35,186 nt of DNA from a virus (lineage: Duplodnaviria > Caudoviricetes). The stretch spans positions 1 to 35,186 of IMG/VR virus record IMGVR_UViG_3300030397_000190; one strand, 5' to 3'. Below are positions 6,073-31,510 of this stretch, piece after piece. Each line of letters begins with the position of its first letter. The stretch's first letter is position 1. The notes under the pieces are model-generated. The model was not told where the DNA came from, searched no databases, and saw nothing but the letters and a program-made list of their open reading frames with translations. Both the position numbers and the translations under genes were made by a program.

Positions 6073-6086
6073 CGCTGTCTCCTGTG

Positions 6087-6359
6087 TTAGTCGACCGTCT
6101 TGGGTTTTTGTATGGCGTCCAGTGCGATTACTTCCTGCGCGATTCTAACCGCTCGCATGACCCGGAGTTTTCGCCAAAACGGAATGCGCCCTTTGACTTT
6201 ACTGCTTGTTGGGATTCGCAAGCCGAGGCCGCCGTTAGCGGTCCACAGTGTGATGCCGCTGTGATGCGTGGCTCTATAATCTCCGAACTCCCAATCGCCC
6301 GGTGTTTGCAGCAGCGACTTTTCGATTTCTCGCCATAGCTTTTGCTTTTTGGCTGCCAT
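6087..6359 (-). CDS. Hypothetical protein
   Basis: ACAGGAGG RBS before MAAKKQK. Confidence 0.65.
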   Translation of the reverse strand: MAAKKQKLWREIEKSLLQTPGDWEFGDYRATHHSGITLWTANGGLGLRIPTSSKVKGRIPFWRKLRVMRAVRIAQEVIALDAIQKPKTVD

Positions 6360-6539
6360 CGCCACCCTCCTGTGTTGACAATGTTGGTGGTGTCGCCCCG
6401 TCGAGCGAAATGGCCCGTCAGCCATCTACACAAGCCTCCCTCTCGGGTGTGTCGGGTGTAGTCGGTTACCCCCGGTTTTGGGTCACGATTGCACCACCAA
6501 CATAAGTCTAACATGCCTTCAAGTATTAGTTGCCCGTTG

Positions 6540-6550
6540 ATTCTAGCACA
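6540..6550 (-). promoter_or_regulatory. Extended -10 promoter candidate
   Basis: TGTGC-TAGAAT just after an upstream stop codon. Confidence 0.45.
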
Positions 6551-6568
6551 CACCGCCCGGCGCTGCGT

Positions 6569-7456
6569 CTATTCGATGAGAACGAGATGAATGGCCGTGT
6601 AGCCTTCACCGCCGCCGGAGACTCCCTGAACAGCGAGACTCGAACACTCGCCGTAGTTCGATGCCCAAACTGGCGTTGCCGGTGTGATCTTGAACAGGCC
6701 GCCTTTGTAGCCCTCGACTGTGGAGCCGATCATGCCTTGGAGTTGCTCGAGTAGTTTCTCAACCGTCGTGTCCTCGTGTTCGGCGTCCGAAGTGTATTCG
6801 ATAGCAAGTTGCTCGTAATAGCCCCGGTAACTGCCGAGTGCCGAGAACTTCCACATGGCCGCGCCGATACGAACCTTGTCCGTGGCCGGGCGTTGCTCGA
6901 GTTGCGCAATCAGTTCACGGAGCGTGAGTTGCCCCTTCGCCTGATTCTCGATTTTGGTCTGCGCCGTTACCCCGTCGAGTAGCGCGTGGATGGGTTCTGC
7001 CCTTGGGTCCGGTGGGTAGGCCTTGTCCATGTCGCCGTAACTGAGTTGCCGGAGCAACTCGTCCGTGTTGACGTTGATCGAGGTCGCGCCCTTATACATG
7101 AGTTCGGGCTCGCCGCTCGCAAGCAGAATATGCAAGGGCTTGTCAGCGCCCCAAAAGTACCCGGCTTCAAGGTGTGCCGAACGCCCGCATGGCATGAGCA
7201 AGACGCAGCAGTCGGCCCACTTCATCGCGTCATAGTCGTGCTTGAAGCCGCGAACGGACGCCGGGTGTTCGAGCATCGCGCGGAACTTTTCTGGCGTCCA
7301 GTTCTGCCAATCGTCGTCGATTTCACGCCAACTGAAACCGTCGTCGCCTTCTTCCGGGTTACGGAAGTCGTAGACTTCGTGCCCGTTCTCGCGTAGCAGC
7401 TTGACGATTTCAGGCTGACGCTCGTTGCGCCATGAACTTGCGAGGTAAATCTTCAT
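6569..7456 (-). CDS. Nucleoside 2-deoxyribosyltransferase-like domain fused to a phage hypothetical domain
   Basis: KIYLASSWRN, GHEVYDF, D..AM..AD..VL..PCGRSAHLEAG; second domain LTL.ELI..SYRGYY..GYKGG..TPVW; ACAGGAG RBS and ATGA overlap. Confidence 0.75.
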   Translation of the reverse strand: MKIYLASSWRNERQPEIVKLLRENGHEVYDFRNPEEGDDGFSWREIDDDWQNWTPEKFRAMLEHPASVRGFKHDYDAMKWADCCVLLMPCGRSAHLEAGYFWGADKPLHILLASGEPELMYKGATSINVNTDELLRQLSYGDMDKAYPPDPRAEPIHALLDGVTAQTKIENQAKGQLTLRELIAQLEQRPATDKVRIGAAMWKFSALGSYRGYYEQLAIEYTSDAEHEDTTVEKLLEQLQGMIGSTVEGYKGGLFKITPATPVWASNYGECSSLAVQGVSGGGEGYTAIHLVLIE

Positions 7457-7950
7457 GTCAATCTCCTGTAGGTTTGCTCTGCGTCCTCGAGCGCCTCGCT
7501 GAGACGCTGACTTTCGTTGAGATTCTTGATGCCCCGTTCCTGTTCGGCCTTTGACAAGTCTGCGAGGCCGTAAGTCCTGTGGTCGCGGCGCTTTATGTAT
7601 GCGTTGGCGAGCGCGAGCGCGGCTTGTGCAAGTGGGGAACTTTCGGATGGTTGGGCGTAGAGGATGACAAACAACATCTCGCCGCCCTTGGGTTCCATGT
7701 AGTGACTGCGCCCGGCCTCGATTCGCGTGACCGTTCCGGCCTCGCATTTCACGGTCTTCATGCCGTCGTCGGTGTCGAAGTGAACAAACCCCTTGCCGCC
7801 AACACAAAGCGCGATTTCGTCGGTGTCATGCTTGTGCCAGCTTCCCGAAAGTTCGAAGCGCATCATCTCGATCTTGCCGCACAAGACTTCATCGGTGAGT
7901 TTGATTGTAGTCATGCCGCCGAATCGGTGACTCGTCGGGGTGATTTCCAT
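7453..7950 (-). CDS. Cupin-domain protein
   Basis: WHKHDTDE..CV.GKG and AG..H metal-binding cupin motifs; helical C-terminus. Confidence 0.75.
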   Translation of the reverse strand: MEITPTSHRFGGMTTIKLTDEVLCGKIEMMRFELSGSWHKHDTDEIALCVGGKGFVHFDTDDGMKTVKCEAGTVTRIEAGRSHYMEPKGGEMLFVILYAQPSESSPLAQAALALANAYIKRRDHRTYGLADLSKAEQERGIKNLNESQRLSEALEDAEQTYRRLT

Positions 7951-8387: not shown

Positions 8388-8415
8388 TGGTCAATCCTGT
8401 GCGTGCGCGTCCGTT

Positions 8416-8519
8416 TGGCGGGGCTCAGTACGTCCGGTGTGACTCCGTAGATGCGGGCGAAACATGCCTAGGAAGATTCCCCGCCTCGTCCATCCCAACC
8501 GTCAAGTGTACTGAGCCCC
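8416..8519 (-). ncRNA. Candidate structured RNA, 104 nt, 12-bp closing stem with 3' GCCA
   Basis: GGGGCTCAGTAC pairs with GTACTGAGCCCC; internal GCGGG/CCCGC and GATG/CATC helices. Confidence 0.5.
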
Positions 8520-8520
8520 A

Positions 8521-9012
8521 TTAGTTCTTGTTCAGGTGGGCGATGCGGTTCACCGTCTCCTGACCACCCACTCTCTCTCTGACCTGATCACGCAAGTCAA
8601 GTAGTTCCTCGGTCGTGAGGTCTTTGAAGTCCTCGCGTGTGAATGTCGTTTTCGACTCGATGGGTCCGCCGTCCGGTCCTGAGTGTTCCAGAGCGACCCG
8701 GCGGCCAAACCTTGCCGGGTCCGTGCGCTCCAACCACCATGCGTGAGCCTGCCATGCCTGCGAGTTCCTGATCCTCGTGATGCTGTACATGGTCCTCTTT
8801 GCTAGAGCCTTTTCTATGTCGGCGCTAAATTCCGGGTCTTTCTGTCGCGCATCGCGAATTGTGCGTTCTGACAATCCGAGGTAGTTCGCTGCGACCGAAA
8901 AGAATCCGGCGACTTGCAAAGCGCCGATGAACTTCGCCTTGATTTCAGCCGTCATTACGTGGTTTGCGCCTTTTGGGCGTCCGCGCTTTCGCTTTGGTTT
9001 TTCTTTGCCCAT
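8521..9012 (-). CDS. terS: Terminase small subunit
   Basis: KRGRP N-terminus, HTH, DPEF, WQA.AW.LER..P..FG, EHSGPDGGPI, LTTEEL. Confidence 0.85.
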   Translation of the reverse strand: MGKEKPKRKRGRPKGANHVMTAEIKAKFIGALQVAGFFSVAANYLGLSERTIRDARQKDPEFSADIEKALAKRTMYSITRIRNSQAWQAHAWWLERTDPARFGRRVALEHSGPDGGPIESKTTFTREDFKDLTTEELLDLRDQVRERVGGQETVNRIAHLNKN

Positions 9013-9676
9013 GTTGCACTTTCTGCTTGTGCCAGAGTGGCACATAGCGTCGGCTTTCGGCCGTCAACAGGCGTAGCCGGTCGACGAATTTATTGCCGAG
9101 TTCGAGTATTCTTGGGGCGGTCACCACCAAACCCGTTCGGCAGTCTATCAGAGTGCCGTTTTCGTCGTCTAGCAAGAAGTCAGCGGGGATCATACCGGCG
9201 GCTGCGTCTTGGGCGTCCTTGTGGAGTCCGTGAGCGCCTTTTTGGAACACTTGCGCTACCTGTTCCGGTGTGAGTAGCCCGCGCTGTCGGGCGGTCAGTA
9301 GGTGCTTCTTTATGGTGCTGAGTGACGTGTTGTGTTTGGTGAGGAGTTGCAGGATGTCGAGCCCGGCTTTGACATCGGAGACGATTACAGAGGGGCCGCC
9401 GGTCTTGGCTGTCTTTCCCCGGTAGGTACTTGGGTCGATTACCCCTTGCTTGATGCCCTCGGCTATCCAGTGGTGGAACGTGGAGCGTTCGATCTCGACT
9501 TCTTTCGCGAGTTGCGAGACGCTTCCGCCGTACCCTTTCAGCGCCATCCCGACGTTGAGCAAGAAGCTGCGCCGTGTGTGCCTGTCGGTGAACTCGAGCC
9601 TAAGTCGTTTCGCTCGTTGGACTTTCGGCCATTTCCTGAGCCGTTTGATCGCTATTCTCGCTTGCTTCGTTGCCAT
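8945..9676 (-). CDS. HTH DNA-binding protein
   Basis: GSVSQLAKEVEIERSTFHHWI HTH; ACAGGAG RBS before MATKQ. Confidence 0.7.
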   Translation of the reverse strand: MATKQARIAIKRLRKWPKVQRAKRLRLEFTDRHTRRSFLLNVGMALKGYGGSVSQLAKEVEIERSTFHHWIAEGIKQGVIDPSTYRGKTAKTGGPSVIVSDVKAGLDILQLLTKHNTSLSTIKKHLLTARQRGLLTPEQVAQVFQKGAHGLHKDAQDAAAGMIPADFLLDDENGTLIDCRTGLVVTAPRILELGNKFVDRLRLLTAESRRYVPLWHKQKVQHGQRKTKAKARTPKRRKPRNDG

Positions 9677-10163
9677 CGTTCTCCTGTGCTTTCTTCTGCC
9701 GTACCGCCCGACTCGGGATTGCGATTCCCGCTTGCCGGGCCTTGGCTGCGATGTGCGCCACCGTCGACTTGCTGACGTTGTGCTGTCGCGCAACCACCCT
9801 GTAGGTGTCGTCCGTGTTTTGAAGCGCTGCAATGATCGAGAGCCAAACCGTGGTGAGCGTCTTGTTCTCGGCCTTCTTGAAGCCGAGGCGCTTCGCCGCC
9901 ATGTCGATTTGGTAGTGGGTGAGTTTGAACTTCTTGGCTGCCTCCTCGTAGCTGTGGCCCTTGTCGAGGAAGTCAACGATTCCCGCATCTCTTAAGTGCT
10001 GCCGTTCTCGGCCGATCACTAGGCCGTTTTCGGTAGCTGCTCGCCGGGCCTGCTCGTACCCGATGCCGAAATGCGAGGCGGCTTCTGTCACCGTCGCGCC
10101 GGTTTCACGCATCCAGTCGGCTATTGCTTTGCGCTTCTTTCTGGCTTCCTCGTGGGTGCCCAT
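9600..10163 (-). CDS. Protein with three tandem HTH motifs (candidate late regulator)
   Basis: TVTEAASHFGIG, SYEEAAKKFKLT, TYRVVARQHNVSKSTV. Confidence 0.75.
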   Translation of the reverse strand: MGTHEEARKKRKAIADWMRETGATVTEAASHFGIGYEQARRAATENGLVIGRERQHLRDAGIVDFLDKGHSYEEAAKKFKLTHYQIDMAAKRLGFKKAENKTLTTVWLSIIAALQNTDDTYRVVARQHNVSKSTVAHIAAKARQAGIAIPSRAVRQKKAQENDGNEASENSDQTAQEMAESPTSETT

Positions 10164-10801
10164 TACTCGTCCTCTGCCGGTGGCGAGAGTGCCGGAAGAT
10201 TGAGCCCCGCAGCGAGAACTTCAAGCAGCTTGTCGGGGTACATGACCGCGTGAATCCGGTCCTTGAGTTCCGTCACCTTGGCGACGAGCGAGCGTAGCTG
10301 CTCGTGTAACTCTGGCGTGTAGTCGAACATGATGCCAACGCCGTAGCCGCTACTGAATGCGCTTTTCTTTTCGCGACCAACCTTGGGCATGTGAGGCCGC
10401 CAGCCCTGCCCGGATATTTTGTTCAGACTGTCGGTCAACCGCCTCCAGCCGTGGATTGTGCCATCCTTGCGGGTGCATACCTCGATTACGCCATATGCGA
10501 TGAAGAAGCCCTCTCCGTTCTTAGCGGGTGAAACCGGGTCGTGGCCTCCTCGGTCGTCAAAACGGACGTATATGTGGCGCGTTACCGTGGTTTCGAGCGC
10601 CGCGACGATGCGCTTGTAAACAACCTGCTCAAGAGCGTCCAAGTCGCCGCCGTACTCGTCGATGCGATGCTCGTCATTGCAGATGCGGAACATGCGGTCG
10701 GCGTCTGCGGCCCGGTTCATCCGAACCTCGCACTTGATGGTCTGACCTCGGTAGGTGACCTCGTACCAGTCGATACGCTTGCCGGGTTTTCTCGTGCCCA
10801 T
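10163..10801 (-). CDS. Hypothetical protein
   Basis: TAATG coupling at both ends. Confidence 0.65.
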   Translation of the reverse strand: MGTRKPGKRIDWYEVTYRGQTIKCEVRMNRAADADRMFRICNDEHRIDEYGGDLDALEQVVYKRIVAALETTVTRHIYVRFDDRGGHDPVSPAKNGEGFFIAYGVIEVCTRKDGTIHGWRRLTDSLNKISGQGWRPHMPKVGREKKSAFSSGYGVGIMFDYTPELHEQLRSLVAKVTELKDRIHAVMYPDKLLEVLAAGLNLPALSPPAEDE

Positions 10802-11061
10802 TACTGTCTCCCTAAGATTTCCTCGGCTTCTTGCCGGAGTTCGTTGAACAGACCCCAAGCGTCCCCGGTGTCGGTGTAGTCCTCATCTTCACATTGCTTG
10901 TCGTACCCGGCGATGCGGTCGATCAGGGACTCCGCGAAGTTGTGAAGGCGCGCGATTCGCTTTGCTCGCTCGGCCTTCTCGCGTGAGGTTCTCCCTGCGG
11001 TCGTCGCGTACAGGAATCCATCGCGAGTGAAAACCTCGTTGTCTACGTGCTTGAGTGGCAT
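10801..11061 (-). CDS. Hypothetical protein
   Basis: ACCACAGGAG RBS. Confidence 0.65.
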   Translation of the reverse strand: MPLKHVDNEVFTRDGFLYATTAGRTSREKAERAKRIARLHNFAESLIDRIAGYDKQCEDEDYTDTGDAWGLFNELRQEAEEILGRQ

Positions 11062-11095
11062 GACTGTCTCCTGTGGTTATGGGCGTTCGCCCCCT

Positions 11096-11494
11096 TTAGT
11101 ATTTCGGTTCAAACTTCGGCAAGCCGCTCGATTGCAGGAAGTTGTCGACTACCGCCTTCGACCCGAAGCACATCGAGGGGATGACGTTATAGGCGTACTT
11201 GTAGATCGCTTGCAGGTAGAACAGGCTCGTCCCGTCCGCATGGCCCATGACCATCTTGAGGTCTTGCGTGAGCAGGCCGTACAGGAAGTCGCCCGGGTAA
11301 ACCGCACCCTGAACGTACCGAACGAGCGCGTCCTTGTACTCGTGCGGGGCGTTGACGCTGTCCTGATTGCCCGGGAACTTCGCTTCCGCGTACAGCTTGA
11401 GGACGTGGTAGTCCTCGCGGCTGATGCTTACCCAGTCGCCGTCCTCGTGTGCGCTTTGCAGGATTCCCCCAAGCGCCGTGTTTCCGTTGATCAT
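11096..11494 (-). CDS. Phage hypothetical protein
   Basis: PGDFL..LL..DL.....AD...L..I..Y.YN..PS.C.GS pattern; CACAGGGAG RBS. Confidence 0.7.
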   Translation of the reverse strand: MINGNTALGGILQSAHEDGDWVSISREDYHVLKLYAEAKFPGNQDSVNAPHEYKDALVRYVQGAVYPGDFLYGLLTQDLKMVMGHADGTSLFYLQAIYKYAYNVIPSMCFGSKAVVDNFLQSSGLPKFEPKY

Positions 11495-11511
11495 GGCTTT
11501 CTCCCTGTGGT

Positions 11512-11952
11512 CTACCCAAAAACAATGTCGCGCTCGATCTCGGCTGATGCCCGGAGCGCGGTGATCATGGATTCAAAGTCTTCGGTTTGTATGTCGTGCA
11601 GGTTTTCAAACACCATTGCTTTCAGCCCTTCGAGGCGGTCGGCAAGCGCTTGACTGTGCCTGTAGTCGATTCTCCCTCCACAATCCGAGTGCACAAACAG
11701 AACAGTCAGGATTTCCTCCGGTGTCTCGGCCCATTCGCCCCGGAAGTTCTCCGGTGTCCAGTCACCATCGACGCTCGGATGATATTCGCCCTTGCGGTAG
11801 TCGCTTGGACGAAGGGGCCAGCCAGCCGCGCGGGCGATGGCTACGCGCATATCGTTGAAGCTGCTGTACGGTGCGCTCCAAAAGCAATGCTCGGGCGTGC
11901 CGTGGCGGTCGTTCCTGTAGTCGTCGCTGTCAACGTAGGCGTGAAGTCCCAT
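11512..11952 (-). CDS. Phage hypothetical protein
   Basis: MGL...YSSF..R..., L..HSDC.G.I motif; ACCACAGGAG RBS. Confidence 0.7.
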   Translation of the reverse strand: MGLHAYVDSDDYRNDRHGTPEHCFWSAPYSSFNDMRVAIARAAGWPLRPSDYRKGEYHPSVDGDWTPENFRGEWAETPEEILTVLFVHSDCGGRIDYRHSQALADRLEGLKAMVFENLHDIQTEDFESMITALRASAEIERDIVFG

Positions 11953-11986
11953 CGCTTTCTCCTGTGGTTCGGCCGGTCGCTCCGGC

Positions 11987-12262
11987 TTAGAACTGAATGC
12001 GTCCGATGGCTACTGCCTCGTCGTACTCCTCGAGGATGTCCATGAGGTCCGAGGGGCTCGGCATACCGTTGGTCGCTTTGATCATGCTGACTGCGCGGTG
12101 GTTGATGTCGCTCGAGCCGATGCCGTGGCCGCTGCCTGCGTACTCGATGGAGAGTTGGCGGCTGGCTGCTTGGCGGACAAGTCGGAACAGGTACTTGTCG
12201 AGGTTGCGGTAGAACTCCCATGCTTCGTCGTTCGTCATGGGCTTGCGCGCGGTCGTGGTCAT
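11987..12262 (-). CDS. Hypothetical protein
   Basis: Dual-GGA leader and ACCACAGGAG RBS before MTTTAR. Confidence 0.65.
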   Translation of the reverse strand: MTTTARKPMTNDEAWEFYRNLDKYLFRLVRQAASRQLSIEYAGSGHGIGSSDINHRAVSMIKATNGMPSPSDLMDILEEYDEAVAIGRIQF

Positions 12263-12301
12263 CGCTTTCTCCTGTGGTTTGCGTGTCCGTCTGACACACA
12301 C

Positions 12302-12330
12302 TCTCTCTCACGTTCGCGCCGTGCTGTCCA
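12302..12330 (-). promoter_or_regulatory. Promoter candidate
   Basis: TGGACA-17 nt (ending TGA)-GAGAGA; same layout as 26632-26660. Confidence 0.4.
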
Positions 12331-12351
12331 ACCTAATCGGGGTCTATTTTT

Positions 12352-12954
12352 CTAAAATAATCCGGTCTGTGGCGGTGGCTCGCCGCCCCCGTCCGGTAGG
12401 CTTTTGGGTTGCCCGTCGAGAGCTTTCCAGACTTTGTGAGCTTCTTCCCGGTACTCCCGGTGTGTTGAGGCGTCAGGCTCGAGGATTGCGCCCTCGTCAC
12501 AGAAGTGGGCGAATCCCCGGCCCATCTTCTTGCCCCGGTAGGTGTGCTTGTCGAGAGCCGCGTCCGGTATCGCCGGTTTGCGCCCGGCGTTGATGTCGTC
12601 CTGAACGCAAGCCTGCAACTCGTCGCCGATGCGCGTCTTTTCAGCCCGACACAATGCGACGATGGCGCACGTCAGAGGAAGTCGCCACGAATCGTCCTTC
12701 TTGCCGTAGAACGTGTCGGCGTCGTCGAGCCCGGCGCGAGCGAACAAGACTTCCTGCATGGCCGTGGGTCCGACATCTTCCCAACACATGACCCGGAGAC
12801 GCTTGATCAGCGCTTTCCACCATCCGGCGGATTCCATTTCGAACGCCCACCGGACAGCTTCACGCTCCCGGCCGCGTCTTACCTCTTTCTGGATTGCCGA
12901 CTGTACTTCCCATACGTTGTACCCCGAGATTGTCGGCCTTTGGTTGCTCGCCAT
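12352..12954 (-). CDS. RarA/MgsA-like helical domain lacking the AAA+ ATPase
   Basis: SAIQK.VRRG, KRL.V...EDVG, P..ALDKHT.RG..MGRG..HF; no Walker A; GGAG RBS before MASNQ. Confidence 0.75.
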   Translation of the reverse strand: MASNQRPTISGYNVWEVQSAIQKEVRRGREREAVRWAFEMESAGWWKALIKRLRVMCWEDVGPTAMQEVLFARAGLDDADTFYGKKDDSWRLPLTCAIVALCRAEKTRIGDELQACVQDDINAGRKPAIPDAALDKHTYRGKKMGRGFAHFCDEGAILEPDASTHREYREEAHKVWKALDGQPKSLPDGGGEPPPQTGLF

Positions 12955-13099
12955 GTTTGATTCTCCACCATTTGCCACACCGCTTACACTTCAACTCGAC
13001 ATCCGATGGCGCGTGTAACTGAACGAGCCATGCGCCACAATCACAGCGCACGACTCCCAAGTTTTCGACGTTGCGGATGTTCGGCTCGAAGTTCGGCAT
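12860..13099 (-). CDS. Mu Com-like zinc-ribbon protein
   Basis: VRCDCGAWL...VELKCKRCG matches the Com pattern; own promoter and dual-GGA leader. Confidence 0.65.
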   Translation of the reverse strand: MPNFEPNIRNVENLGVVRCDCGAWLVQLHAPSDVELKCKRCGKWWRIKHGEQPKADNLGVQRMGSTVGNPERGKTRPGA

Positions 13100-13131
13100 G
13101 ACTTCTCCTGAGTGCGTTGCGTCCGACACAC

Positions 13132-13160
13132 TCTCTACCTCGCGAGAACGCCTTTGTGAA
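13132..13160 (-). promoter_or_regulatory. Promoter candidate
   Basis: TTCACA-17 nt-TAGAGA. Confidence 0.45.
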
Positions 13161-13172
13161 GGGGTTTCTAGC

Positions 13173-18406: not shown

Positions 18407-18423
18407 TGGTGCGCGTCCGAATG

Positions 18424-18458: not shown

Positions 18459-18537
18459 CGGGGGAGATGCTAGTCGCAGACATCTCCAAAAGCCGTCGTG
18501 TTCTTCGCCAAGTGGGTAGGAACCTACCCGATGGTTT

Positions 18538-19056
18538 TCACTTCGTCAAATCTTTCGATTCCTTGATGAAATCCCGCCCGGCGTCGGTGAGTTTGTAGAC
18601 TCGCGCCTCGCTGCCGAACCTCGTTGGCCGTGTCCCACCCGCCGGAGTAAGTAGTCCCATGCGCTCGAGTTCGGTTTGTCGTGGACCGTGCGGAATCTGT
18701 AGCGCGGCTTCCCATTCGTCGCACGTCGCCGGGCCGTTGTCGTAGACGTACTCGAGGATTTTGAAGCGTTGCGAGCCCCGGCGTGGCCGGTTGTCCGACT
18801 CGGCCATCTTCGAGGTTTCGGGGTCCGTCTTTCTGACCGGCTTGCGTTTCGCGATGATGTCGCGCAGGCGTTGATTCTCGCGCTCGAGTTCGACGATTCG
18901 CTTCGCCGGGTCCATACCGTTCGCTAGAGCGTGGTCAACGCGGGATTCTAGGCTGTCGAGCGCGGGCTCGCATCTATCACCGCCGCAACCGGGCGGTGCT
19001 TGTTTCGCGAGGCGCTGTTTCTTTTCCCAATCCGACTCGAACAGGTTAGTCGCCAT
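18538..19056 (-). CDS. Coiled-coil plus C-terminal winged-helix protein
   Basis: VRKTDPETS..A, R..IL.., G..T.DE, R.TEL...GL, Y.LT..G. Confidence 0.7.
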   Translation of the reverse strand: MATNLFESDWEKKQRLAKQAPPGCGGDRCEPALDSLESRVDHALANGMDPAKRIVELERENQRLRDIIAKRKPVRKTDPETSKMAESDNRPRRGSQRFKILEYVYDNGPATCDEWEAALQIPHGPRQTELERMGLLTPAGGTRPTRFGSEARVYKLTDAGRDFIKESKDLTK

Positions 19057-23046: not shown

Positions 23047-23076
23047 CGGTTTCTCCTGTCGTGCGCGTCCGGTAAG

Positions 23077-23105
23077 TCTCTAGCACATAGCGACTTTCGG
23101 CGCAA
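23077..23105 (-). promoter_or_regulatory. Promoter candidate for recT
   Basis: TTGCGC-17 nt (ending TGC)-TAGAGA. Confidence 0.5.
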
Positions 23106-23107
23106 AT

Positions 23108-24233: not shown

Positions 24234-24269
24234 GGCACATCACTCTCCTGTGGTGTAAGCAGCGTCCGA

Positions 24270-24321: not shown

Positions 24322-24345
24322 TGATGCGACAACCCGTGGGTCTTG

Positions 24346-24714
24346 TTAGGAAATGCCCTCACAGTCCCTGTAGGCGGTTTCCAACTCTTTGCGCTCCGGG
24401 CCTTCTGGGATGCACGCAAGATTGTCCTCGGGGTCCGTAAGTGACCTGACTGCGTCGACGACCGCCGCCATCTTCTTCGCTCCTCGCTTTTGATTGAGGA
24501 AGTCGGCCATGTCGTCGGCGCATTCGTGACAGAGCAAGATTGGTTGAGGCACGCGCTCTCCCCACGACGCCCCTTGGAAGTCGAATGCGCCATTCTGGAT
24601 AAACCGCAGCGTTGCCCAACAATTCGTTGGGCCGCCGGGTAGACTTTCGCCGACATGCTGCTTGCCGCATCGGTCGCACGTGTGGACCGTCTTACTCGTC
24701 GTTTCAGTTCCCAT
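24346..24714 (-). CDS. Zn-finger hypothetical protein
   Basis: CDRCG...LCHEC; GAGGA RBS. Confidence 0.65.
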   Translation of the reverse strand: MGTETTSKTVHTCDRCGKQHVGESLPGGPTNCWATLRFIQNGAFDFQGASWGERVPQPILLCHECADDMADFLNQKRGAKKMAAVVDAVRSLTDPEDNLACIPEGPERKELETAYRDCEGIS

Positions 24715-24748
24715 TTCGCTTCCTCATAAGGCTTCGTTGGCTCTGATA

Positions 24749-26020: not shown

Positions 26021-26149
26021 GGGTTCTCCTGTGGTTTGACTGATCTCCAAAAAACTGCCCGTTTTACATGGGTGGCGTTACGTGTGTTGCGCTTGGATGC
26101 TGTTCGCGGGTGTTTAGACGTTTCTGCCCGTCGATGCGTTAGAACGCAA

Positions 26150-26350
26150 TTATGGGCAAATTACGAATAGACACTCCTCGGCACCGTGAACAGCGGGTTT
26201 GCCGCAAACTTCGCATGTGTAGTTGCGGGCGTCCGGCTCGATGCCGGAGTGTTCTGCCCCGCATTCGAGGCAAAAGCCCGTGTTGTTGTCGTTCTCAACC
26301 GCGCCCATGACGCGCTCGAGCGTCGGGTAGGATTGCGCGTGTGTCGTCAT
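26150..26350 (-). CDS. Zinc-ribbon protein
   Basis: GFCLECG...EPDA..Y.CE.CG..V.GAE. Confidence 0.75.
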   Translation of the reverse strand: MTTHAQSYPTLERVMGAVENDNNTGFCLECGAEHSGIEPDARNYTCEVCGKPAVHGAEECLFVICP

Positions 26351-26386
26351 AACTGTCTCCTGTGGTTTGCGTTGCGTCCGTTCGGG

Positions 26387-26602
26387 CTAGACGCCCGTGA
26401 TCTTGCACTTTTCCAAGTGCGGGGCGTGTTCGTCGCGCCAGTCTTGGACTGCGCTCATGAGTTCGGTGTAGGCGTTGTCGTCACCCATCGGGCCACGAAC
26501 CTTACTGACCGTGCAACGGTCGTCGCCTTCGCTGATATTCACGCAGAACTTGAGCCCGTTTGGGCTTTCGATCATCACGTCCCTGTGGTACTTGACCGAC
26601 AT
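26387..26602 (-). CDS. Hypothetical protein
   Basis: ACCACAGGAG RBS. Confidence 0.6.
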   Translation of the reverse strand: MSVKYHRDVMIESPNGLKFCVNISEGDDRCTVSKVRGPMGDDNAYTELMSAVQDWRDEHAPHLEKCKITGV

Positions 26603-26631
26603 AGCTTTCTCCTGTGGTTGGTCCTACTCAA

Positions 26632-26660
26632 TCACTCTCACGCCCGGCGGGACGTGTCAA
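26632..26660 (-). promoter_or_regulatory. Promoter candidate
   Basis: Perfect TTGACA; 17 nt ending TGA; non-canonical GAGTGA. Confidence 0.45.
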
Positions 26661-26669
26661 ACCTAAATG

Positions 26670-26743
26670 CCCGTGGTGGTGAGCCGGGCAGGAAGCCAAA
26701 CCCGCCCGGCTCTGGACCCCGGGCATCCGGGGCACCACAGGAA
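26670..26743 (-). ncRNA. Candidate three-way-junction RNA containing anti-RBS sequence
   Basis: Outer stem CCTGTGGTG/CACCACGGG; hairpins CCCCGG/CCGGGG and GAGCCGGGCGGG/CCTGCCCGGCTC; G-U pairs favour the minus strand. Confidence 0.55.
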
Positions 26744-27859
26744 CTATGCCATTGCGCCGGTCAGGATTTCACCGGCCTTTTGCTGGATGTCGATGCGGTC
26801 CCGGCCGTGGCTGAGTGTGTTGGCGTAGGCCGTCAAGCCGTTCGTGACGCTCCACACGCTCAAGTCCTCGCCGCCTAGCTGCGTCTGCGCGAGTTCGACC
26901 GAAGCCTTGGCCACTTTCTTCGTGACGCCCATTTTGTTCAGGCGTTTTTCAGCGCCCTCGACGTTCGGCGCGAACTCGACATCGGCCGCTTTGTGCAGGA
27001 AGTCAAACTCCTCGTCGGTGATGGTTGTACCCATCTCGGCGACTTGCTTCTTGAACTCCCCGAAGCCGTCGACAATGCCCTGTCGGTGGACGACTTGGTA
27101 GATCATCTGTTCCTGCATCCCCCAAATCAGGAGGTTGGCGCAAATGTCGCGAAACAAGAAGCTCGTCCAGCCGAACATGCGGTCGCCTGTCTCGCTGTTC
27201 CAGACAGCGAGCCCCCGGCGCAGGCCGCCAAGGTCATCGGACTGGCCGCCGTCGCCGTCCTTCATGAAGAACATGAAGCTCGAGCGGTCATCACGCACGA
27301 GGCACTTCGGCTTACCTTCCTCGGGGCCGCTGTAGCGGAAGGTCGGAGAGGCCGGAGTCCAGCCGGAGCCCAAGAGCCACCGGTCGACTTCGCCGCAAAC
27401 ATCGTCGTCCCACAGGCGCTTGTACTGTGAGCCCGTGAATGCGCGCACCTTCTGTACGCCGTCGACGTTCTCAAGGAGAATCTGACCCACGCGGCTGTCC
27501 TCGCGCGGCATGAGTTCGTTGATGACCCGGCTGCGCGTCTCCGGCTTGAGGCGCTCGATCATGCCCAAGTTGACGCCCGCCATGCGGACAATCTGCTTGT
27601 AGCTGTAGTTGGTGAGTTCGCCCTTGATCTCGGTTTCACCGTCAAGGACCGTGATCGTCTCCGGCTTCTGCATCTCGCCGGGAAGCACCGCCACGTGCTT
27701 GAGGTCGACGACATGCTCGGTGCAACGAGCCCGCTGATCCTTGGCGTCCTGCCACAACTCCTGAAACGAGTCGTACTTGCTTTCTTCTGGCGCGTTGAAC
27801 ACTTCTTTGTTTGCGAGGTTGTTGTAAGTCTGCTCGCCCTTTTCACTCGTTACCTGCAT
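26744..27859 (-). CDS. DUF932/DUF945-like protein
   Basis: RA..G..Y.R.WD, G..V.NSE.G, F.FR.IC.N, H.., W...NG.T..A. Confidence 0.7.
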   Translation of the reverse strand: MQVTSEKGEQTYNNLANKEVFNAPEESKYDSFQELWQDAKDQRARCTEHVVDLKHVAVLPGEMQKPETITVLDGETEIKGELTNYSYKQIVRMAGVNLGMIERLKPETRSRVINELMPREDSRVGQILLENVDGVQKVRAFTGSQYKRLWDDDVCGEVDRWLLGSGWTPASPTFRYSGPEEGKPKCLVRDDRSSFMFFMKDGDGGQSDDLGGLRRGLAVWNSETGDRMFGWTSFLFRDICANLLIWGMQEQMIYQVVHRQGIVDGFGEFKKQVAEMGTTITDEEFDFLHKAADVEFAPNVEGAEKRLNKMGVTKKVAKASVELAQTQLGGEDLSVWSVTNGLTAYANTLSHGRDRIDIQQKAGEILTGAMA

Positions 27860-27895
27860 TGCATTCTCCTGTGGTTATGGGCTGTGTGCCCGTGA

Positions 27896-28126
27896 TTAGA
27901 GTTCGTCCGGCCCCAACACCGCCACCCGGAACTCGACGCCGGGGTGGTCACGCTCGAGTTCTTGGACAAGCGCGTCCGCCTCGTCCTCGGTGAGTAGTTC
28001 ACCGCTGACTACTTTGCGGGCACCGCGCGCCGGAACCTCGAGAACCTCGAACCGGCGCTCCGGCAGTTCGATGTATTCGGGTCCGCGTGTTTTCCAAGCG
28101 TCGTAACCGGGAAGTGAGTGAGACAT
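27896..28126 (-). CDS. Hypothetical protein (first early gene)
   Basis: LPGYDAWKT motif; dual-GGA leader. Confidence 0.65.
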   Translation of the reverse strand: MSHSLPGYDAWKTRGPEYIELPERRFEVLEVPARGARKVVSGELLTEDEADALVQELERDHPGVEFRVAVLGPDEL

Positions 28127-28164
28127 GGCTTTGCTCCTGTGGTCGTGTTGCGTCCGTTGCTCAG

Positions 28165-28193
28165 ATTCTCAGGCCCATCGCGAAAGCAGTCGA
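28165..28193 (-). promoter_or_regulatory. Early promoter candidate
   Basis: TCGACT-17 nt-GAGAAT, downstream of the terminator. Confidence 0.45.
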
Positions 28194-28229
28194 GCCAATT
28201 CGGAAATTCCCGAATCTGTGAATTTGCAG

Positions 28230-28261
28230 AAACGCAAACGAGCCGCCCGAAGGCAGCCCGT
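28230..28261 (-). terminator. Intrinsic terminator ending the late/lysis operon
   Basis: ACGGGCTGCC-TTCG-GGCGGCTCGT (C-UUCG-G loop) then TTGCGTTT. Confidence 0.7.
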
Positions 28262-28266
28262 GTTTT

Positions 28267-28390
28267 GCATATCCGCTTTACTGCCGGGGAGTCCTGTGCG
28301 CGGTCAGGACTCCCCCATATCCGTTGGGCCGCTTCTCGGCCGTGGCTACTACGTTCCGCGCACGCCTCGCTTCTCGTCGATGGGTTATGC
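28267..28390 (-). ncRNA. Candidate multi-stem pseudoknotted RNA
   Basis: 11-bp hairpin whose loop CCGCGCA is complementary to upstream TGCGCGG; GCATA/TATGC closure; internal direct repeats. Confidence 0.55.
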
Positions 28391-28393
28391 CGT

Positions 28394-28777
28394 CTAACTG
28401 GCGAGGTCTAGCACTCGCCCGAATATGCTGCTGATGATGTTCCCGGCGTGTGTTGCCGATGCCGCTGCCACGTCCCGCATGGCACGCATCACTTCGATTG
28501 CGACGACTGCCTTCAAGTCCTGCAACGTCGATTCGACGATTGCGGCTTCTCGTCCGACGTGCTGGCCCATGCGGCGCTTGATTTCAATTTTGGCGAGATC
28601 GACCATCGCGGCCTGCGCGAGTTTGCGCTTCTCGCCGGTCAAGTCCTTGATGGTGCCCTTGCCGATTTCCTCGACTTTGGCCCACCAAGCCTTGCCGATC
28701 TCGAGCGACTCCTCCTTGAGTTCGTCAAGGAAGTGTTCGGCCTTGTTCTTCTTCGGGGCTTTCTTTTCGTCCGACAT
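28394..28777 (-). CDS. Helical hypothetical protein in the lysis-type block
   Basis: Starts 2 nt after the lipoprotein stop; amphipathic C-terminus. Confidence 0.65.
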   Translation of the reverse strand: MSDEKKAPKKNKAEHFLDELKEESLEIGKAWWAKVEEIGKGTIKDLTGEKRKLAQAAMVDLAKIEIKRRMGQHVGREAAIVESTLQDLKAVVAIEVMRAMRDVAAASATHAGNIISSIFGRVLDLAS

Positions 28778-28779
28778 AG

Positions 28780-29085
28780 CTAGTCGCCCTTGTTCCTAGT
28801 GTAGCCGATCTCGGCTGCGAGTTCGTCCGCGAGAATGTTCGAGGATTGGTACTTCCGTTCCCGGCGCTCGATCTTCTCCTCGCGCGTGCCGTCTTGGTCG
28901 TCCTTGAACCAAGGTTCGAACTCGCCCTCCTCATTCTGGCGGTAGGCGTCCGTCACCATCTCGTTCCACTCCTCGACAACGGAGTCGGTCTGCATGATGT
29001 ACGCCTTCGCCGTGTCCTCCTTCACGCTCATGCAACCGGCGAGCGCGAGAATGGCGACGAAGCAAATCAACGAAAACAGTTTCAT
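28780..29085 (-). CDS. Lipoprotein (possible spanin-like component)
   Basis: Signal peptide with LAGC lipobox; dual-GGA leader. Confidence 0.7.
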   Translation of the reverse strand: MKLFSLICFVAILALAGCMSVKEDTAKAYIMQTDSVVEEWNEMVTDAYRQNEEGEFEPWFKDDQDGTREEKIERRERKYQSSNILADELAAEIGYTRNKGD

Positions 29086-29117
29086 GGATTCTCCTGTTCG
29101 GTGCGTGCGTCCGAAGT

Positions 29118-29303
29118 CTACTTGTCTTTCTTCTTCTCGCGCAAGTGAAATCCGAAGCGCGCGAGAATCGCGAGGACTAGAGCGCCGATTGCCGGGATCA
29201 TCGCTTCATCAAGTTCGATGCCCGCTTGCTTGAGCAGCGCCATGACGATCATGCCCGCCGCAACCGCTGCCGTGAGGTCCGACGCTGTCTTTGGCTTGTT
29301 CAT
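29118..29303 (-). CDS. Small 2-TM protein, holin candidate
   Basis: 61 aa, two hydrophobic helices, basic C-terminus. Confidence 0.6.
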   Translation of the reverse strand: MNKPKTASDLTAAVAAGMIVMALLKQAGIELDEAMIPAIGALVLAILARFGFHLREKKKDK

Positions 29304-29728
29304 GCCTGATTCTCCTGTATCCGAGCGACCTGCCCGCGCAAATCGCTGATGCTGCTACTGTGCTTGTCGAGCCGCTTGTTCGTTTCTTCCTGCCCCTTCG
29401 AAAATTCCTCGTGCTTCTGTGCCCCACGGTCTAGCCGGTCCTCAATCTTCGCGAATCCATCGTCCATCTGCATACCCTGCCTGACGATTGAGTCGTTCAT
29501 GGTGTTCATGCCGTTGAGCGTCTCGGTTTTGTGGTCCGACAAGTCCTTCCCGAAAGCCTCAACTGCGGCCGTGTTCTTGTCCAACGCTGCAAGGTGTCGG
29601 TCGAACAGCTTCTTCCCGATGTAGGCGAGTAGGCCTAGTACCGTCGTGCCAGTCGCACCGATCCCGAACAACTCGCCGATGTTTATGCTCGACTCGGCTT
29701 GCAAGAGTGTGAGTACATAGATCATCAC
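29300..29728 (-). CDS. Membrane-anchored coiled-coil protein (holin/spanin-like)
   Basis: N-terminal TM then coiled coil; ATGA overlaps. Confidence 0.6.
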   Translation of the reverse strand: MMIYVLTLLQAESSINIGELFGIGATGTTVLGLLAYIGKKLFDRHLAALDKNTAAVEAFGKDLSDHKTETLNGMNTMNDSIVRQGMQMDDGFAKIEDRLDRGAQKHEEFSKGQEETNKRLDKHSSSISDLRGQVARIQENQA

Positions 29729-31023
29729 GGAGTCTCGTACCAGATTTCTACGCCGTCGACATCGCGGGACGACGAACCGAAGCCGCCACTTGCCATTTCT
29801 AGGTGCGCCGTGACGCCAAGGTTCTCGATGCGCGCCGGGTCGGTGTCCTCAAACACCCCACGCAATTCGTTGTCGACCCACGTCTCGACGATCACGCTCG
29901 ACGCCCCGATTGTGAATCGCAGCCTATAATCGGCCGCAACACTTGGGTCTTGCACCATGAAATTAGTGTCGATGATTGAAAGCGTGCCGCCAACGAGCCG
30001 ATAAAGTGACCACGATGTAGTCGAGTTGTTCAAGACGATGTAGCCGTTGCCGGACACACCATTCTCATAATCACCGTCTACCGACGCGCCCATGCGGTTT
30101 TGCAGCGATTCAGTGGAACTCGCAACCCAATCGAGGAATGCGACCTCGAACTCCGATTGCGCCGTGATCTCGTGGTTGGCCGATGCGTTCGCAAGCTCAA
30201 ACGCATCGTTGTGCGCCTGATTCGAGAGGATGCGCCAGTTGTCTACCGTCTCGGTCCACCCCGCGCCTAGCGATTCGGCATCAGCCCGGTTGAAATCATC
30301 CGTCCATTGCGAACTTATCGGCGTTGACGTGATGGTTGCGGCGTTGAATCCGGTACAGCTTGGCCCGGGGGCAGAGCCTTGCCGGTTTACTAGGCCGAAG
30401 CCACCCGTTCGGAAAGCGGTAGTTGATGGGGCGGTATCTACAAAGCCATGAACGAGAGTTCCGTTGTGGTAGACCCGTAGCCGGACATTCGAGCCTTCGA
30501 CTGTCGCTCGCAATCTGACCGTCCCACCGTCGATAGGTGAGTCTGTGTACGTGAACAGGACCGTTGCCGTTCCGGTGACCATCTTTTCTAGCGTGATATC
30601 ACCGTCTGAGTTGAACGCGATTCTGTACCCGTTGAGCGTCCCACCCGAACCACCGAACGTCTCCCATGCACCGGGCGTGTAATCGCTCGACAACATTACG
30701 GCCGCTTCAAAGAACGCTCCTGTGACCTGACCGACGTAACCGATCATCTCGGCGAATACGTCCGGCGCGCTCGCGAAGTCGAGTTTGTCGGAATCCGCGT
30801 GTACAGCCTGCTCATCACTGAGCGCGTCGCCGCAGTCGAGTACGCCCGAAAGTACGCGACATTGGTTGCCGCCGCTGTTGTCTAAGGTGAAGTCGTCCGC
30901 AGAGGGAACCCACGGGTCTACATCTGCGATACCCCCGAAGTCGAGGAGTGTCGACACGCCACCGCCCACCGGTTTATTGGCAACGCTCGGGGATACTGCC
31001 GATCCAATCATGATGCCGGACAT
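29725..31023 (-). CDS. Virion protein with two lectin/ConA-like beta-sandwich repeats
   Basis: Duplicated DDF..., NGY.., G..T, R.R.T..G S.V..V...NG/DN pattern; DDFNRAD..LG.GWT. Confidence 0.65.
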   Translation of the reverse strand: MSGIMIGSAVSPSVANKPVGGGVSTLLDFGGIADVDPWVPSADDFTLDNSGGNQCRVLSGVLDCGDALSDEQAVHADSDKLDFASAPDVFAEMIGYVGQVTGAFFEAAVMLSSDYTPGAWETFGGSGGTLNGYRIAFNSDGDITLEKMVTGTATVLFTYTDSPIDGGTVRLRATVEGSNVRLRVYHNGTLVHGFVDTAPSTTAFRTGGFGLVNRQGSAPGPSCTGFNAATITSTPISSQWTDDFNRADAESLGAGWTETVDNWRILSNQAHNDAFELANASANHEITAQSEFEVAFLDWVASSTESLQNRMGASVDGDYENGVSGNGYIVLNNSTTSWSLYRLVGGTLSIIDTNFMVQDPSVAADYRLRFTIGASSVIVETWVDNELRGVFEDTDPARIENLGVTAHLEMASGGFGSSSRDVDGVEIWYETP

Positions 31024-31041
31024 AGGCTTCCTCGTTGAAAG

Positions 31042-31070
31042 AGCCTAGCAGTATCGTGCCCGTGTTTCTA
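31042..31070 (-). promoter_or_regulatory. Promoter candidate
   Basis: TAGAAA-17 nt (ending TGC)-TAGGCT. Confidence 0.35.
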
Positions 31071-31313
31071 GGACTGCTTCTTGAGGAAGTCGCCAAGCGC
31101 AGAGTGCCCGGCTTCCATTTCTTTGAGAGTTTCCCGTCGCGCTCGCGCTAGGTCGCGCTTGATGTTCTTGAAATCGTCAACCTCGATTGCGTGAGCGGCG
31201 GCCGTGGGGTCTTTGCCTTCCGGGTCTTTGACTACGCACTGGATCACGACTTTGCCTTGAGGCTTGCCGTCGATGAAGGTCTGACTGATGTTCTGAATCA
31301 TTTGAAGTGCCAT
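31068..31313 (-). CDS. Small hypothetical protein (possible fibre chaperone)
   Basis: ACAGGAG RBS before MALQM; position after the fibre gene. Confidence 0.55.
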   Translation of the reverse strand: MALQMIQNISQTFIDGKPQGKVVIQCVVKDPEGKDPTAAAHAIEVDDFKNIKRDLARARRETLKEMEAGHSALGDFLKKQS

Positions 31314-31324
31314 GCTCTCTCCTG

Positions 31325-31510
31325 TTAGGTGATCTCTGGCCAGTCGCCGACGCCGTCCATGGCGTCTTTCATCTGGCCCAACCATTCAAGCGCGTCCGCT
31401 TCCTCCATCGACTCTAGCATGTCCGCAATCTGTTTGCGTAGGACCGGGTCCATCGCCTGCCACCGATGGTCATTTTGGTTGATGCCTGCTTGCTCGAGTA
31501 GGTCGCTCAT
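31325..31510 (-). CDS. Small acidic hypothetical protein
   Basis: Fills the gap after the fibre gene. Confidence 0.5.
   Translation of the reverse strand: MSDLLEQAGINQNDHRWQAMDPVLRKQIADMLESMEEADALEWLGQMKDAMDGVGDWPEIT

What the first reader, a model, noticed from the sequence alone, without database searches (positions are those of the whole stretch)
6073..31327. Genome-wide dual-GGA translation leader (CGGACGC...ACAGGAG): candidate CsrA/Rsm-type regulon
Seen: about 20 starts use (ACC)ACAGGAG as RBS, e.g. 6072, 6359, 7456, 9676, 11061, 11952, 12262, 20164, 23046, 24233, 26020, 26350, 26602, 27859, 28126, 29085, 29303, 31313. A second element lies shortly upstream in many: ACGGACGCAACGCAAACCACAGGAG (26350), ACGGACGCAACACGACCACAGGAG (28126), ACGGACGCGCACGCACAGGAT (8387), CCGGACGCGCACGACAGGAG (23046), TCGGACGCAACGCACTCAGGAG (13099), TCGGACGCACGCACCGAACAGGAG (29085), TCGGACGCTGCTTACACCACAGGAG (24233), TCGGACGCGCACCAATGGA (18397), ACGGACACGCAAACCACAGGAG (12262), AGGACGCAGAGCAAACCTACAGGAG (7456). 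It often lies just downstream of promoter candidates, so it would be in the mRNA. Known: CsrA/RsmA dimers bridge two ANGGA sites, one overlapping the SD, and CsrB repeats are CAGGA(U/A/C)G. The CCAC extension and the upstream element are not explained by standard anti-SD pairing. Inference: one RNA-binding factor gates many genes across modules. No csrA gene is visible in the window.
Basis: partly seen in the sequence, partly recalled or inferred. Interest (0 to 1): 0.8.

Follow-up and report, generated by a model that had tools for sequence, protein, structure and literature searches.

The report
Repeated early-gene leader word in phage
Two related uncultured phages repeat the same seven-letter word just ahead of a stereotyped ribosome-binding site, almost only on non-structural genes and often at the predicted start of the message, so it likely is a binding site through which one protein would control those genes together, but its conserved letters fit the bacterial regulator CsrA only in part and no partner has been identified.

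Summary
ACAGGAG precedes 18 of 56 starts, and (A)CGGACGC/CGGACAC sits in 9 non-coding leaders. One relative (G001, terminase about 69% identical), found by the motif alone, has it in 7 leaders, at four matching genome positions, ahead of different genes. It is not genome-wide: 15 of 16 copies precede non-structural genes. Nine lie at about 0 to +12 of a predicted sigma-70-type start. The CsrA reading is only partly supported. For it: ACGGACG fits the published ANGGAYG, spacing is 11-24 nt, and three G001 copies sit in hairpin loops with differing stems. Against it: in 27 leaders chosen by the SD alone the excess is all GGACGC (12 of 27); other ANGGA words occur in 1 of 27; 5 of 9 window copies lack the A; no csrA was found in either contig; the host is unknown. 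Best reading: a start-associated cassette like mycobacteriophage SAS/ESAS, likely an RNA-level operator for one factor more specific than canonical CsrA. A weakly Com-like zinc-ribbon gene is one poor candidate. This scan noted similar leader motifs on other DNA before.

The parts
29107..29113 (-). CGGACGC word, 4 nt after the upstream stop, leader of the lipoprotein gene starting at 29085 (only copy in the lysis block; absent from the G001 orthologue's leader)
28165..28193 (-). predicted promoter TCGACT-17-GAGAAT heading the early region
   Evidence: loose pattern derived from these sites; not mapped experimentally
28150..28156 (-). CGGACGC word at about +3, leader of gene 28126
26632..26660 (-). 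predicted promoter TTGACA-17-GAGTGA; transcript would begin AGGACC (variant word) before the SD of gene 26602
26374..26380 (-). CGGACGC word, 6 nt after the upstream stop, leader of zinc-ribbon gene 26350
24262..24268 (-). CGGACGC word directly after a GC-rich hairpin, leader of the RecE/YqaJ exonuclease gene 24233
23077..23105 (-). predicted promoter TTGCGC-17-TAGAGA with TG extension
23065..23071 (-). CGGACGC word at about 0/+1, leader of recT (23046)
18521..18549 (-). predicted promoter TTGACG-17-TAGGTT upstream of a terminator-like hairpin (18428-18455)
18413..18419 (-). CGGACGC word after the terminator-like hairpin, leader of the replication-initiator-like gene 18397 (weak SD AUGGA)
13132..13160 (-). 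predicted promoter TTCACA-17-TAGAGA
13119..13125 (-). CGGACGC word at about +1, leader of gene 13099
12860..13099 (-). 79-codon zinc-ribbon gene weakly like phage Mu Com (below family cut-off); weak candidate trans factor
12302..12330 (-). predicted promoter TGGACA-17-GAGAGA
12283..12289 (-). variant word CGGACAC at about +7, leader of gene 12262
8572..8600 (-). predicted promoter TTGACT-17-GAGAGA in the 3' end of terS
8407..8413 (-). CGGACGC word after a long hairpin, leader of gene 8387 (SD ACAGGAU)
6079..31325 (-). 18 ACAGGAG Shine-Dalgarno sites; first A at 31325, 29318, 29097, 28140, 27872, 26615, 26363, 26032, 24251, 23059, 20179, 12275, 11965, 11074, 9687, 7469, 6373, 6085

Best explanation
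The two phages carry a repeated early-gene leader cassette (predicted promoter, the word (A)CGGACGC, an A/C-rich spacer, then ACC-ACAGGAG), and the word likely is an RNA-level operator at the 5' edge of the leader through which one protein, more sequence-specific than canonical CsrA, would switch translation or stability of these messages together. Shown: enrichment, position, conservation in the relative, bias to non-structural genes, spacer composition. Predicted: promoters, start sites, hairpins. Inferred: that a protein binds, that it binds RNA, and that the effect is a joint shut-off of early and recombination/replication genes. The ACAGGAG part is most simply this lineage's strong ribosome-binding site. 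The factor is unidentified; because the word is unchanged between phages whose shared proteins are 37-72% identical, a slowly changing host protein (a CsrA-fold protein with shifted specificity included) is as likely as a phage protein.
For: Word in 9 window and 7 G001 non-coding leaders. Same genome position in four cases (first early gene; after the glycosyltransferase; after the MgsA-C-like gene; after terS) although the next gene differs (tblastn). In 27 leaders defined by the SD alone, GGACGC is upstream in 12 (expected fraction 0.03, p 8e-12) while other GGA is at background, 9 of 27. The spacer varies from 6 to 19 nt and is 130 of 163 nt A or C: both ends kept, middle free, as for binding sites rather than homology tracts. 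9 of 16 copies at about 0..+12 of a predicted start, 4 within 6 nt after a stop, 3 just after a hairpin. Three G001 copies lie in loops of 5-8 bp stems that differ in sequence yet pair, GGA unpaired 0.95-1.00 against 0.47-0.54 for shuffled flanks. Coding copies are near synonymous-shuffle background (15 vs 10.0, 9 vs 10.7).
Against: Only two genomes, one lineage. Loop display is not general: stems of 5 bp or more in 4 of 16 leader copies against 3 of 27 non-leader copies (null 8%, p 0.03); over all 16, GGA accessibility 0.57 vs 0.46, p 0.07, and the window's own copies are unremarkable. The three hairpins may descend from one copy. The promoter pattern and the 16-copy set were derived from these sites, so their column conservation is circular. 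At 23071 and 13125 the predicted start falls on or just inside the word. No RNA-binding protein shared by both contigs was identified; the shared regulators are helix-turn-helix proteins, which point to DNA.
Confidence: 0.4

Rival explanations
1. Canonical host CsrA/RsmA bridges the upstream GGA and the GGA of the SD and represses these genes.
For: ACGGACG fits the RsmA/RsmF consensus CANGGAYG at 6-8 of 8 positions in all 16 copies, 8 of 8 in two (consensus from 10.1101/315341). 11 of 16 copies, and 7 of 7 in G001, are ANGGA. GGA-to-GGA spacing 11-24 nt lies within the 10-63 nt range. AGGA is a listed primary site. Three G001 copies have GGA in a loop. An unchanged word in diverged phages suits a host protein. 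Phage csrA genes exist and one affects plaque size.
Against: A[AGU]GGA upstream in 1 of 27 SD-defined leaders (expected fraction 0.09), although RsmA prefers U at N in vivo. ANGGA not enriched over 56 starts (9, p 0.14). 5 of 9 window copies lack the A while N, Y and the C at +3 are fixed. 3 of 16 leaders reach three primary sites (secondary sites not counted). G001 leader 29867 has ACAGGGG, no second GGA. 11 of 18 window ACAGGAG leaders have no GGACGC/GGACAC word in non-coding DNA apart from the variant at 20164 and 26602. No PF02599 match in either contig; host unknown.
Confidence: 0.18
2. The word acts on DNA: an oriented operator or stoperator for a phage helix-turn-helix repressor, or a start-site/initially-transcribed sequence read by RNA polymerase.
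For: Asymmetric, one orientation, found at promoters and in short intergenic gaps, which is how Cluster A stoperators are described (PMC9283540). Nine copies overlap or follow a predicted start. Both phages keep two HTH genes (9600-10163, 8945-9676).
Against: The core is 7-8 bp against 13 bp for stoperators; 14 further minus-strand copies in the window lie in coding DNA at roughly background level, neither clearly avoided nor enriched. Hairpins with differing stems around three copies have no use in duplex DNA. The HTH proteins are only 37-41% identical, yet the word is unchanged. A pure start-site role does not explain the 7 copies away from promoters.
Confidence: 0.2
3. No ligand: a strong promoter-leader cassette was copied around the variable early region by RecET recombination (PeSL-like), and the word is a leftover of common descent.
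For: Genes behind the cassette are swapped between the two phages. RecT and RecE are encoded. Leaders 27859 and 11061 share a 17-nt run (family D6). PeSL cassettes do this in T4-type phages (PMC2839356).
Against: Exact identity is only 7 plus 7-10 nt with a free spacer between; the word survives divergence that has erased the spacer. The cassettes lack the terminator stem-loop that defines PeSLs in most copies.
Confidence: 0.17

Closest known systems
Start-associated sequences (SAS) and extended SAS of Cluster K mycobacteriophages (PMC3203893) and Cluster EF Microbacterium phages (PMC7302621)
   Same: Asymmetric, over-conserved SD-containing repeat a few nt before starts; extra letters not explained by 16S pairing; a second conserved element upstream of about half; tied to genes of different families; function untested.
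   Different: SD repeat is 7-10 nt, not 13, and also precedes 3 of 12 late genes here; the upstream element is one oriented 7-mer, not a 17-bp inverted pair or a GTAGAG-centred stretch; it sits downstream of a predicted promoter; no sequence likeness.
CsrA/RsmA/RsmE dual-site translational repression (glgC, hcnA; PMC4066749, 10.1101/315341)
   Same: Two GGA, one in the SD, 11-24 nt apart; ACGGACG fits ANGGAYG; some copies in loops.
   Different: Fixed CGGACGC rather than free ANGGA; A often lost; usually only two sites; mostly no hairpin; no csrA gene seen; no Rfam match for a Csr RNA.
Cluster A mycobacteriophage operators/stoperators (PMC9283540)
   Same: Oriented asymmetric word at promoters and in short intergenic gaps.
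   Different: 7-8 bp instead of 13; always coupled to an SD leader; no repressor of that family identified.
PeSL regulatory cassettes of T4-type phages (PMC2839356)
   Same: Repeated promoter-to-SD cassette ahead of variable early genes that differ between relatives.
   Different: No constant terminator stem-loop; short identity; an internal fixed word that PeSLs lack.
Phage Mu Com / mom (PMC6483171)
   Same: A weakly Com-like zinc-ribbon gene lies in the window and itself carries the cassette.
   Different: Below family cut-off; Com motif CC(N)2-3GAG not met at the SD (0 of 27; the SD reads CC-N4-GAG in 15 of 27); no bipartite Com motif in either contig; gene missing from the matching place in G001.

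Membership tests
CsrA/Rsm target leader | A(N)GGA site at or overlapping the SD | tested here: met
   AGGA in ACAGGAG, a primary site in PMC4066749 Table 2; true of any AGGAG SD, so not discriminating; fails for G001 29867
CsrA/Rsm target leader | second site 10-60 nt away | tested here: met
   GGA spacing 11-24 nt in the 12 leaders with both GGACGC/GGACAC and ACAGGAG in non-coding DNA
CsrA/Rsm target leader | second site is ANGGA, N free | tested here: inconclusive
   A present in 11 of 16 (4 of 9 window, 7 of 7 G001); but A[AGU]GGA in 1 of 27 SD-defined leaders, N is always C
CsrA/Rsm target leader | at least three sites in the binding region | tested here: not met
   3 of 16 have three primary sites in -30..+60 of the word; secondary sites not counted
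CsrA/Rsm target leader | GGA shown in a hairpin loop | tested here: inconclusive
   4 of 16 with stems of 5 bp or more vs 3 of 27 controls; 3 of 16 clear from predicted 5' ends
CsrA/Rsm target leader | a CsrA-family gene in phage or host | tested here: inconclusive
   no PF02599 match at E<=10 in G000 or G001, none among 29 small proteins; both contigs incomplete; host unknown
CsrA/Rsm target leader | binding and repression by CsrA | not testable with these tools
   needs EMSA and reporters
SAS/ESAS | over-conserved asymmetric SD-containing repeat just before starts, one orientation | tested here: met
   18 of 19 copies before starts, 0 on the plus strand; AC before AGGAG in 16 of 23 and 8 of 13 vs 23 of 280 in 115 other loci
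SAS/ESAS | conserved letters without 16S pairing | tested here: met
   12 of 12 16S-like ends among 30 loci read continue CCUCCU-UU, none GU; host's own 16S not known
SAS/ESAS | restricted to non-structural genes | tested here: inconclusive
   upstream word 15 of 16 non-structural; SD also before 3 of 12 late genes in the window and 1 of 21 in G001
SAS/ESAS | 13-bp consensus and 17-bp inverted-repeat extension of Cluster K | tested here: not met
   different, shorter sequence; single oriented 7-mer
Stoperator | asymmetric site oriented with transcription at promoters and intergenic gaps | tested here: met
Stoperator | 13-bp consensus bound by a cognate repressor | tested here: not met
   core 7-8 bp; binding not testable
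PeSL | sigma-70-like promoter plus terminator stem-loop in each cassette | tested here: not met
   promoter-like site near 9 of 16; terminator-like hairpin beside 1 (18428-18455)
PeSL | recombination between cassettes | tested here: inconclusive
   genes differ behind matching cassettes; no joints in contigs of 3 DNA runs of one study, which cannot show absence
Mu Com / mom | Com-family protein | tested here: inconclusive
   PF10122 15 bits vs cut-off 22.9, E 0.017; phrog_6417 E 0.044; two of seven homologues also hit PF10122 weakly
Mu Com / mom | CC(N)2-3GAG or bipartite GAGNNCC motif in the target leader | tested here: not met
   0 of 27 SD leaders; 0 bipartite motifs in either contig

The most novel reading that the evidence does not exclude
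The phage lineage has put an operator for a CsrA-fold protein with shifted specificity (CGGACGC rather than ANGGA), or for another GGA-loop reader, at the first nucleotides of its early messages, so that recombination, replication-initiation and small early genes are gated together after transcription by the host's physiological state. That would give start-associated sequences a first concrete RNA-level mechanism.
Probability: 0.2. Interest if true: 0.7.

Novelty: new variant of a known kind. Interest (0 to 1): 0.36.

Why it matters
Start-associated sequences have been described in actinobacterial phages since 2011 without a tested function (PMC3203893, PMC7302621). This case adds a short word placed at the predicted mRNA 5' end, natural variants with and without a hairpin, and three named candidates (CsrA, two HTH proteins, a Com-like protein), so DNA-level and RNA-level models can be told apart with a few reporters and gel shifts. 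If canonical CsrA bound, it would be a phage early regulon wired to a host global regulator; two literature searches (titles and abstract openings only) listed no such case. The limits are two uncultured genomes, no host and no partner.

Tried and rejected
Relatives by protein: recT, terminase, glycosyltransferase and gene 4718 searches gave only G001 above 50% identity. Five motif scans of IMG/VR: only G001 had five cassettes in one locus; among the 53 loci counted, four others had two under a loose pattern, and among the 42 none had two. GTDB scan for the cassette: about 140 single hits over many phyla, 0 of 120 with a second cassette within 1.5 kb, so no host lineage emerged. Host clues from DnaB, the DUF932 protein, terminase and the ESM Atlas were all below 40% identity or without taxon value. 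No RNA holder listed. Contigs of 3 DNA runs of one study showed no variants or joints over 9500-29400. Rfam: 0 hits; tRNA/tmRNA: 0. The standard sigma-70 scan found 1 site, below shuffle level; the phage's -10 departs from TATAAT. An inverted GCGTC partner upstream occurs by eye in only about a quarter of copies and was dropped. Chi-like or genome-wide DNA selection rejected: coding copies near background. No structure or complex prediction was run, as no pair was worth a job. No supplementary files were read; tables of SAS or CsrA sites in them could bear on the comparison.
Full report
Setting. The window is the whole of G000, a linear virus record of 35,186 nt that CheckV rates 48% complete. 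The genes I curated all lie on the minus strand. PHROGs and Pfam identify portal, large and small terminase, RecT, a RecE/YqaJ exonuclease, DnaB, a replication-initiator-like protein, RusA, an HNH nuclease, a glycosyltransferase and two helix-turn-helix proteins: a tailed bacteriophage. Its host could not be determined.

Observation. ACAGGAG occurs 19 times on the minus strand and never on the plus strand; 18 copies precede a start, 18 of 56 curated starts. CGGACGC is at -45..-12 of 9 of 56 starts (p 5e-9). After dropping copies inside reading frames (near 7456, 7950, 19665, 21713) and adding the CGGACAC variant, 9 non-coding leader copies remain: 29113, 28156, 26380, 24268, 23071, 18419, 13125, 12289, 8413. 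GGA alone (31 of 56, p 0.03) and ANGGA (9 of 56, p 0.14) are hardly or not enriched; GACGC is the top 5-mer.

A relative. A motif scan of IMG/VR returned 17 loci; one contig, IMGVR_UViG_3300009095_000040 (G001), proved to be a true relative, with terminase about 69%, portal about 71% and glycosyltransferase about 72% identical in tblastn. It has ACGGACGC in 7 non-coding leaders (32924, 32185, 31409, 29896, 29187, 25200, 157) and none in a non-coding leader of its virion block (the one late flag is a coding copy). Four cassettes are at matching places in the two phages, but the next gene differs in each; the lipoprotein gene has the word in the window and lacks it in G001. No other relative with the cassette was found. 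By gene order (inference) the window lacks about 14 kb of head and tail genes that G001 shows, and G001 lacks about 13 kb of replication genes that the window shows, so a gene common to both should be visible in at least one; neither has a PF02599 match at E<=10, and none of 29 small proteins hit CsrA.

Anatomy. A promoter-like pattern (T-[TGC][GCT]-AC-x, 17 nt, [GT]AG[ATG][GT][AT]) occurs 5 times on the window's minus strand and 6 times on G001's, against 0.77 and 0.30 in shuffles, and 0 times at spacers 16 and 18 (3 and 1 at 15; 3 and 2 at 19). The pattern was read off these sites, so the test is partly circular. With two looser sites added, 9 of 16 words lie at about 0 to +12 of the predicted start, 4 lie 1-6 nt after a stop codon, and 3 follow a hairpin. 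The spacer to the SD is 6-19 nt, 130 of 163 letters A or C (15 leaders; 18419 left out). 15 of 16 words precede non-structural genes; the SD is also used by 3 of 12 late genes in the window and 1 of 21 in G001.

The SD. AC precedes AGGAG in 16 of 23 window and 8 of 13 G001 AGGAG-ATG sites, against 23 of 280 in 115 other terminase-bearing loci. Twelve of 12 16S-like 3' ends among 30 loci read continue CCUCCU-UU, so the C is a mismatch and ACC is not explained by pairing; the host's own 16S is unknown. But unrelated phage loci picked up by the motif scan also repeat ACAGGAG (L262: 5 starts among 6 AGGAG-ATG sites; L280: 5), so this part is a strong, stereotyped ribosome site rather than evidence of a regulator.

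Testing CsrA. In its favour: all 16 words match CANGGAYG (10.1101/315341, passages) at 6-8 of 8 positions, 11 of 16 are ANGGA, and GGA spacing is 11-24 nt, within the 10-63 nt bridging range (PMC4066749, passages and section 5). Three G001 words sit in loops of stems with different but pairing sequences; folded from the predicted start their GGA is unpaired at 0.95-1.00 against 0.47-0.54 for shuffled flanks. Against: in 27 leaders chosen by the SD alone, an upstream GGA is in 18 (p 0.006), but the excess is GGACGC (12, p 8e-12; one of the 12, at 7456, is a coding copy); other GGA is in 9 (p 0.77) and A[AGU]GGA in 1 (p 0.92), whereas RsmA prefers U at N in vivo (10.1101/2020.08.24.265819, passages). 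In the window the A is lost in 5 of 9 while the free positions are fixed. Only 3 of 16 leaders have three primary sites. One G001 leader has ACAGGGG. Stems of 5 bp or more close 4 of 16 leader words and 3 of 27 non-leader words (null 8%, p 0.03); overall accessibility is 0.57 vs 0.46 (p 0.07). So the leaders work somewhat like CsrA targets but fail or leave open several defining tests.

Other readers. Coding copies are near background under synonymous shuffling (15 vs 10.0, fraction 0.06; 9 vs 10.7), which gives no sign of genome-wide DNA selection. The word's orientation and placement resemble stoperators (PMC9283540, passages), and both phages keep two HTH genes at 37-41% identity, but the core is only 7-8 bp. 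Gene 13099 is a zinc-ribbon protein with weak hits to Mu Com (PF10122 E 0.017, under the cut-off; phrog_6417 E 0.044); 7 homologues were found, 2 with weak PF10122 hits. The Com target motif (PMC6483171, passages) is not met (0 of 27; no bipartite motif) and G001 has no such gene at the matching place or elsewhere in its contig. Copying of a whole cassette by recombination, as for PeSLs (PMC2839356, abstract and section 13), would explain swapped genes and one shared 17-nt run, but not a fixed word beside a free spacer.

Mechanism committed to. Early promoters and intercistronic gaps deliver messages that start, or whose leader starts, with (A)CGGACGC, followed by an A/C-rich arm and a strong SD. 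One protein likely binds the word and, lying 6-19 nt from the SD, would block or license ribosome loading or shield the 5' end, switching recT, recE, the initiator and small early genes together (0.40). Rivals: DNA-level operator or start-site element (0.20), canonical CsrA (0.18), copied cassette with no ligand (0.17). Binding, level of action and direction of effect are all inferred.

Comparison and novelty. The closest described class is SAS/ESAS (PMC3203893 and PMC7302621, passages): over-conserved SD repeat plus an upstream element on about half of the genes, function untested. This is a new variant: other sequence, a single oriented word, tied to predicted starts, sometimes shown in a loop. 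Phage csrA genes are known (30 of 2,517 genomes, PMC7366521, passages; one knock-down shrinks plaques, PMC11879866, passages). Searches (listings only) showed no report of CsrA sites across a phage's own early leaders. Earlier notes of this scan describe like motifs on other DNA, some with a phage csrA and one resolved as SAS-like; they are unchecked leads, and none concerns this genome or a look-alike.

Verdict. A real, lineage-specific early-gene leader element; CsrA is one candidate among several and not the best fit. Interest 0.36.

Noticed in passing
window 1-17 and 35170-35186: The two ends are exact inverted copies of one 17-nt tag; recalled as a random-amplification primer tag, so an assembly artefact and not a terminal repeat.
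   Followed up: partly
window 8414-8519 (-): 106-nt intergenic stretch after terS closed by a perfect 12-bp stem and followed by GCCA; folding z -2.5; no Rfam or ARAGORN hit; a predicted promoter lies at 8572-8600; absent at the matching place in G001.
   Followed up: partly
window 12860-13099 (-): Zinc-ribbon microprotein weakly like Mu Com, with a small family of unnamed homologues; no Com target motif found in the contig.
   Followed up: partly
window 18428-18549 (-): Predicted promoter, about 65 nt, then a terminator-like hairpin before the replication-initiator-like gene: possible attenuator.
   Followed up: no
window 27859, 11952, 11061, 24233 leaders: ACAGGAG leaders often begin with a short GC-rich hairpin just after the upstream stop; 27859 and 11061 share a 17-nt run, a sign of leader copying.
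   Followed up: partly
window 13173-14604 (-): ParB-like/methyltransferase-associated gene plus TET-associated-type glycosyltransferase, kept in G001 at 64-72% identity: possible DNA-modification module.
   Followed up: no
window 9600-10163 and 8945-9676 (-): Two adjacent multi-HTH genes kept in both phages just before terS; the first has Mor-like Atlas neighbours (score 0.90), a possible late activator.
   Followed up: partly
L056 12960-13226 and 10729-11652 (G001): Stand-alone MutS domain I protein and an SprT-like protease among the variable early genes.
   Followed up: no
L262, L283, L280: Unrelated phage contigs that also use ACAGGAG repeatedly as ribosome site, without the upstream word.
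   Followed up: partly
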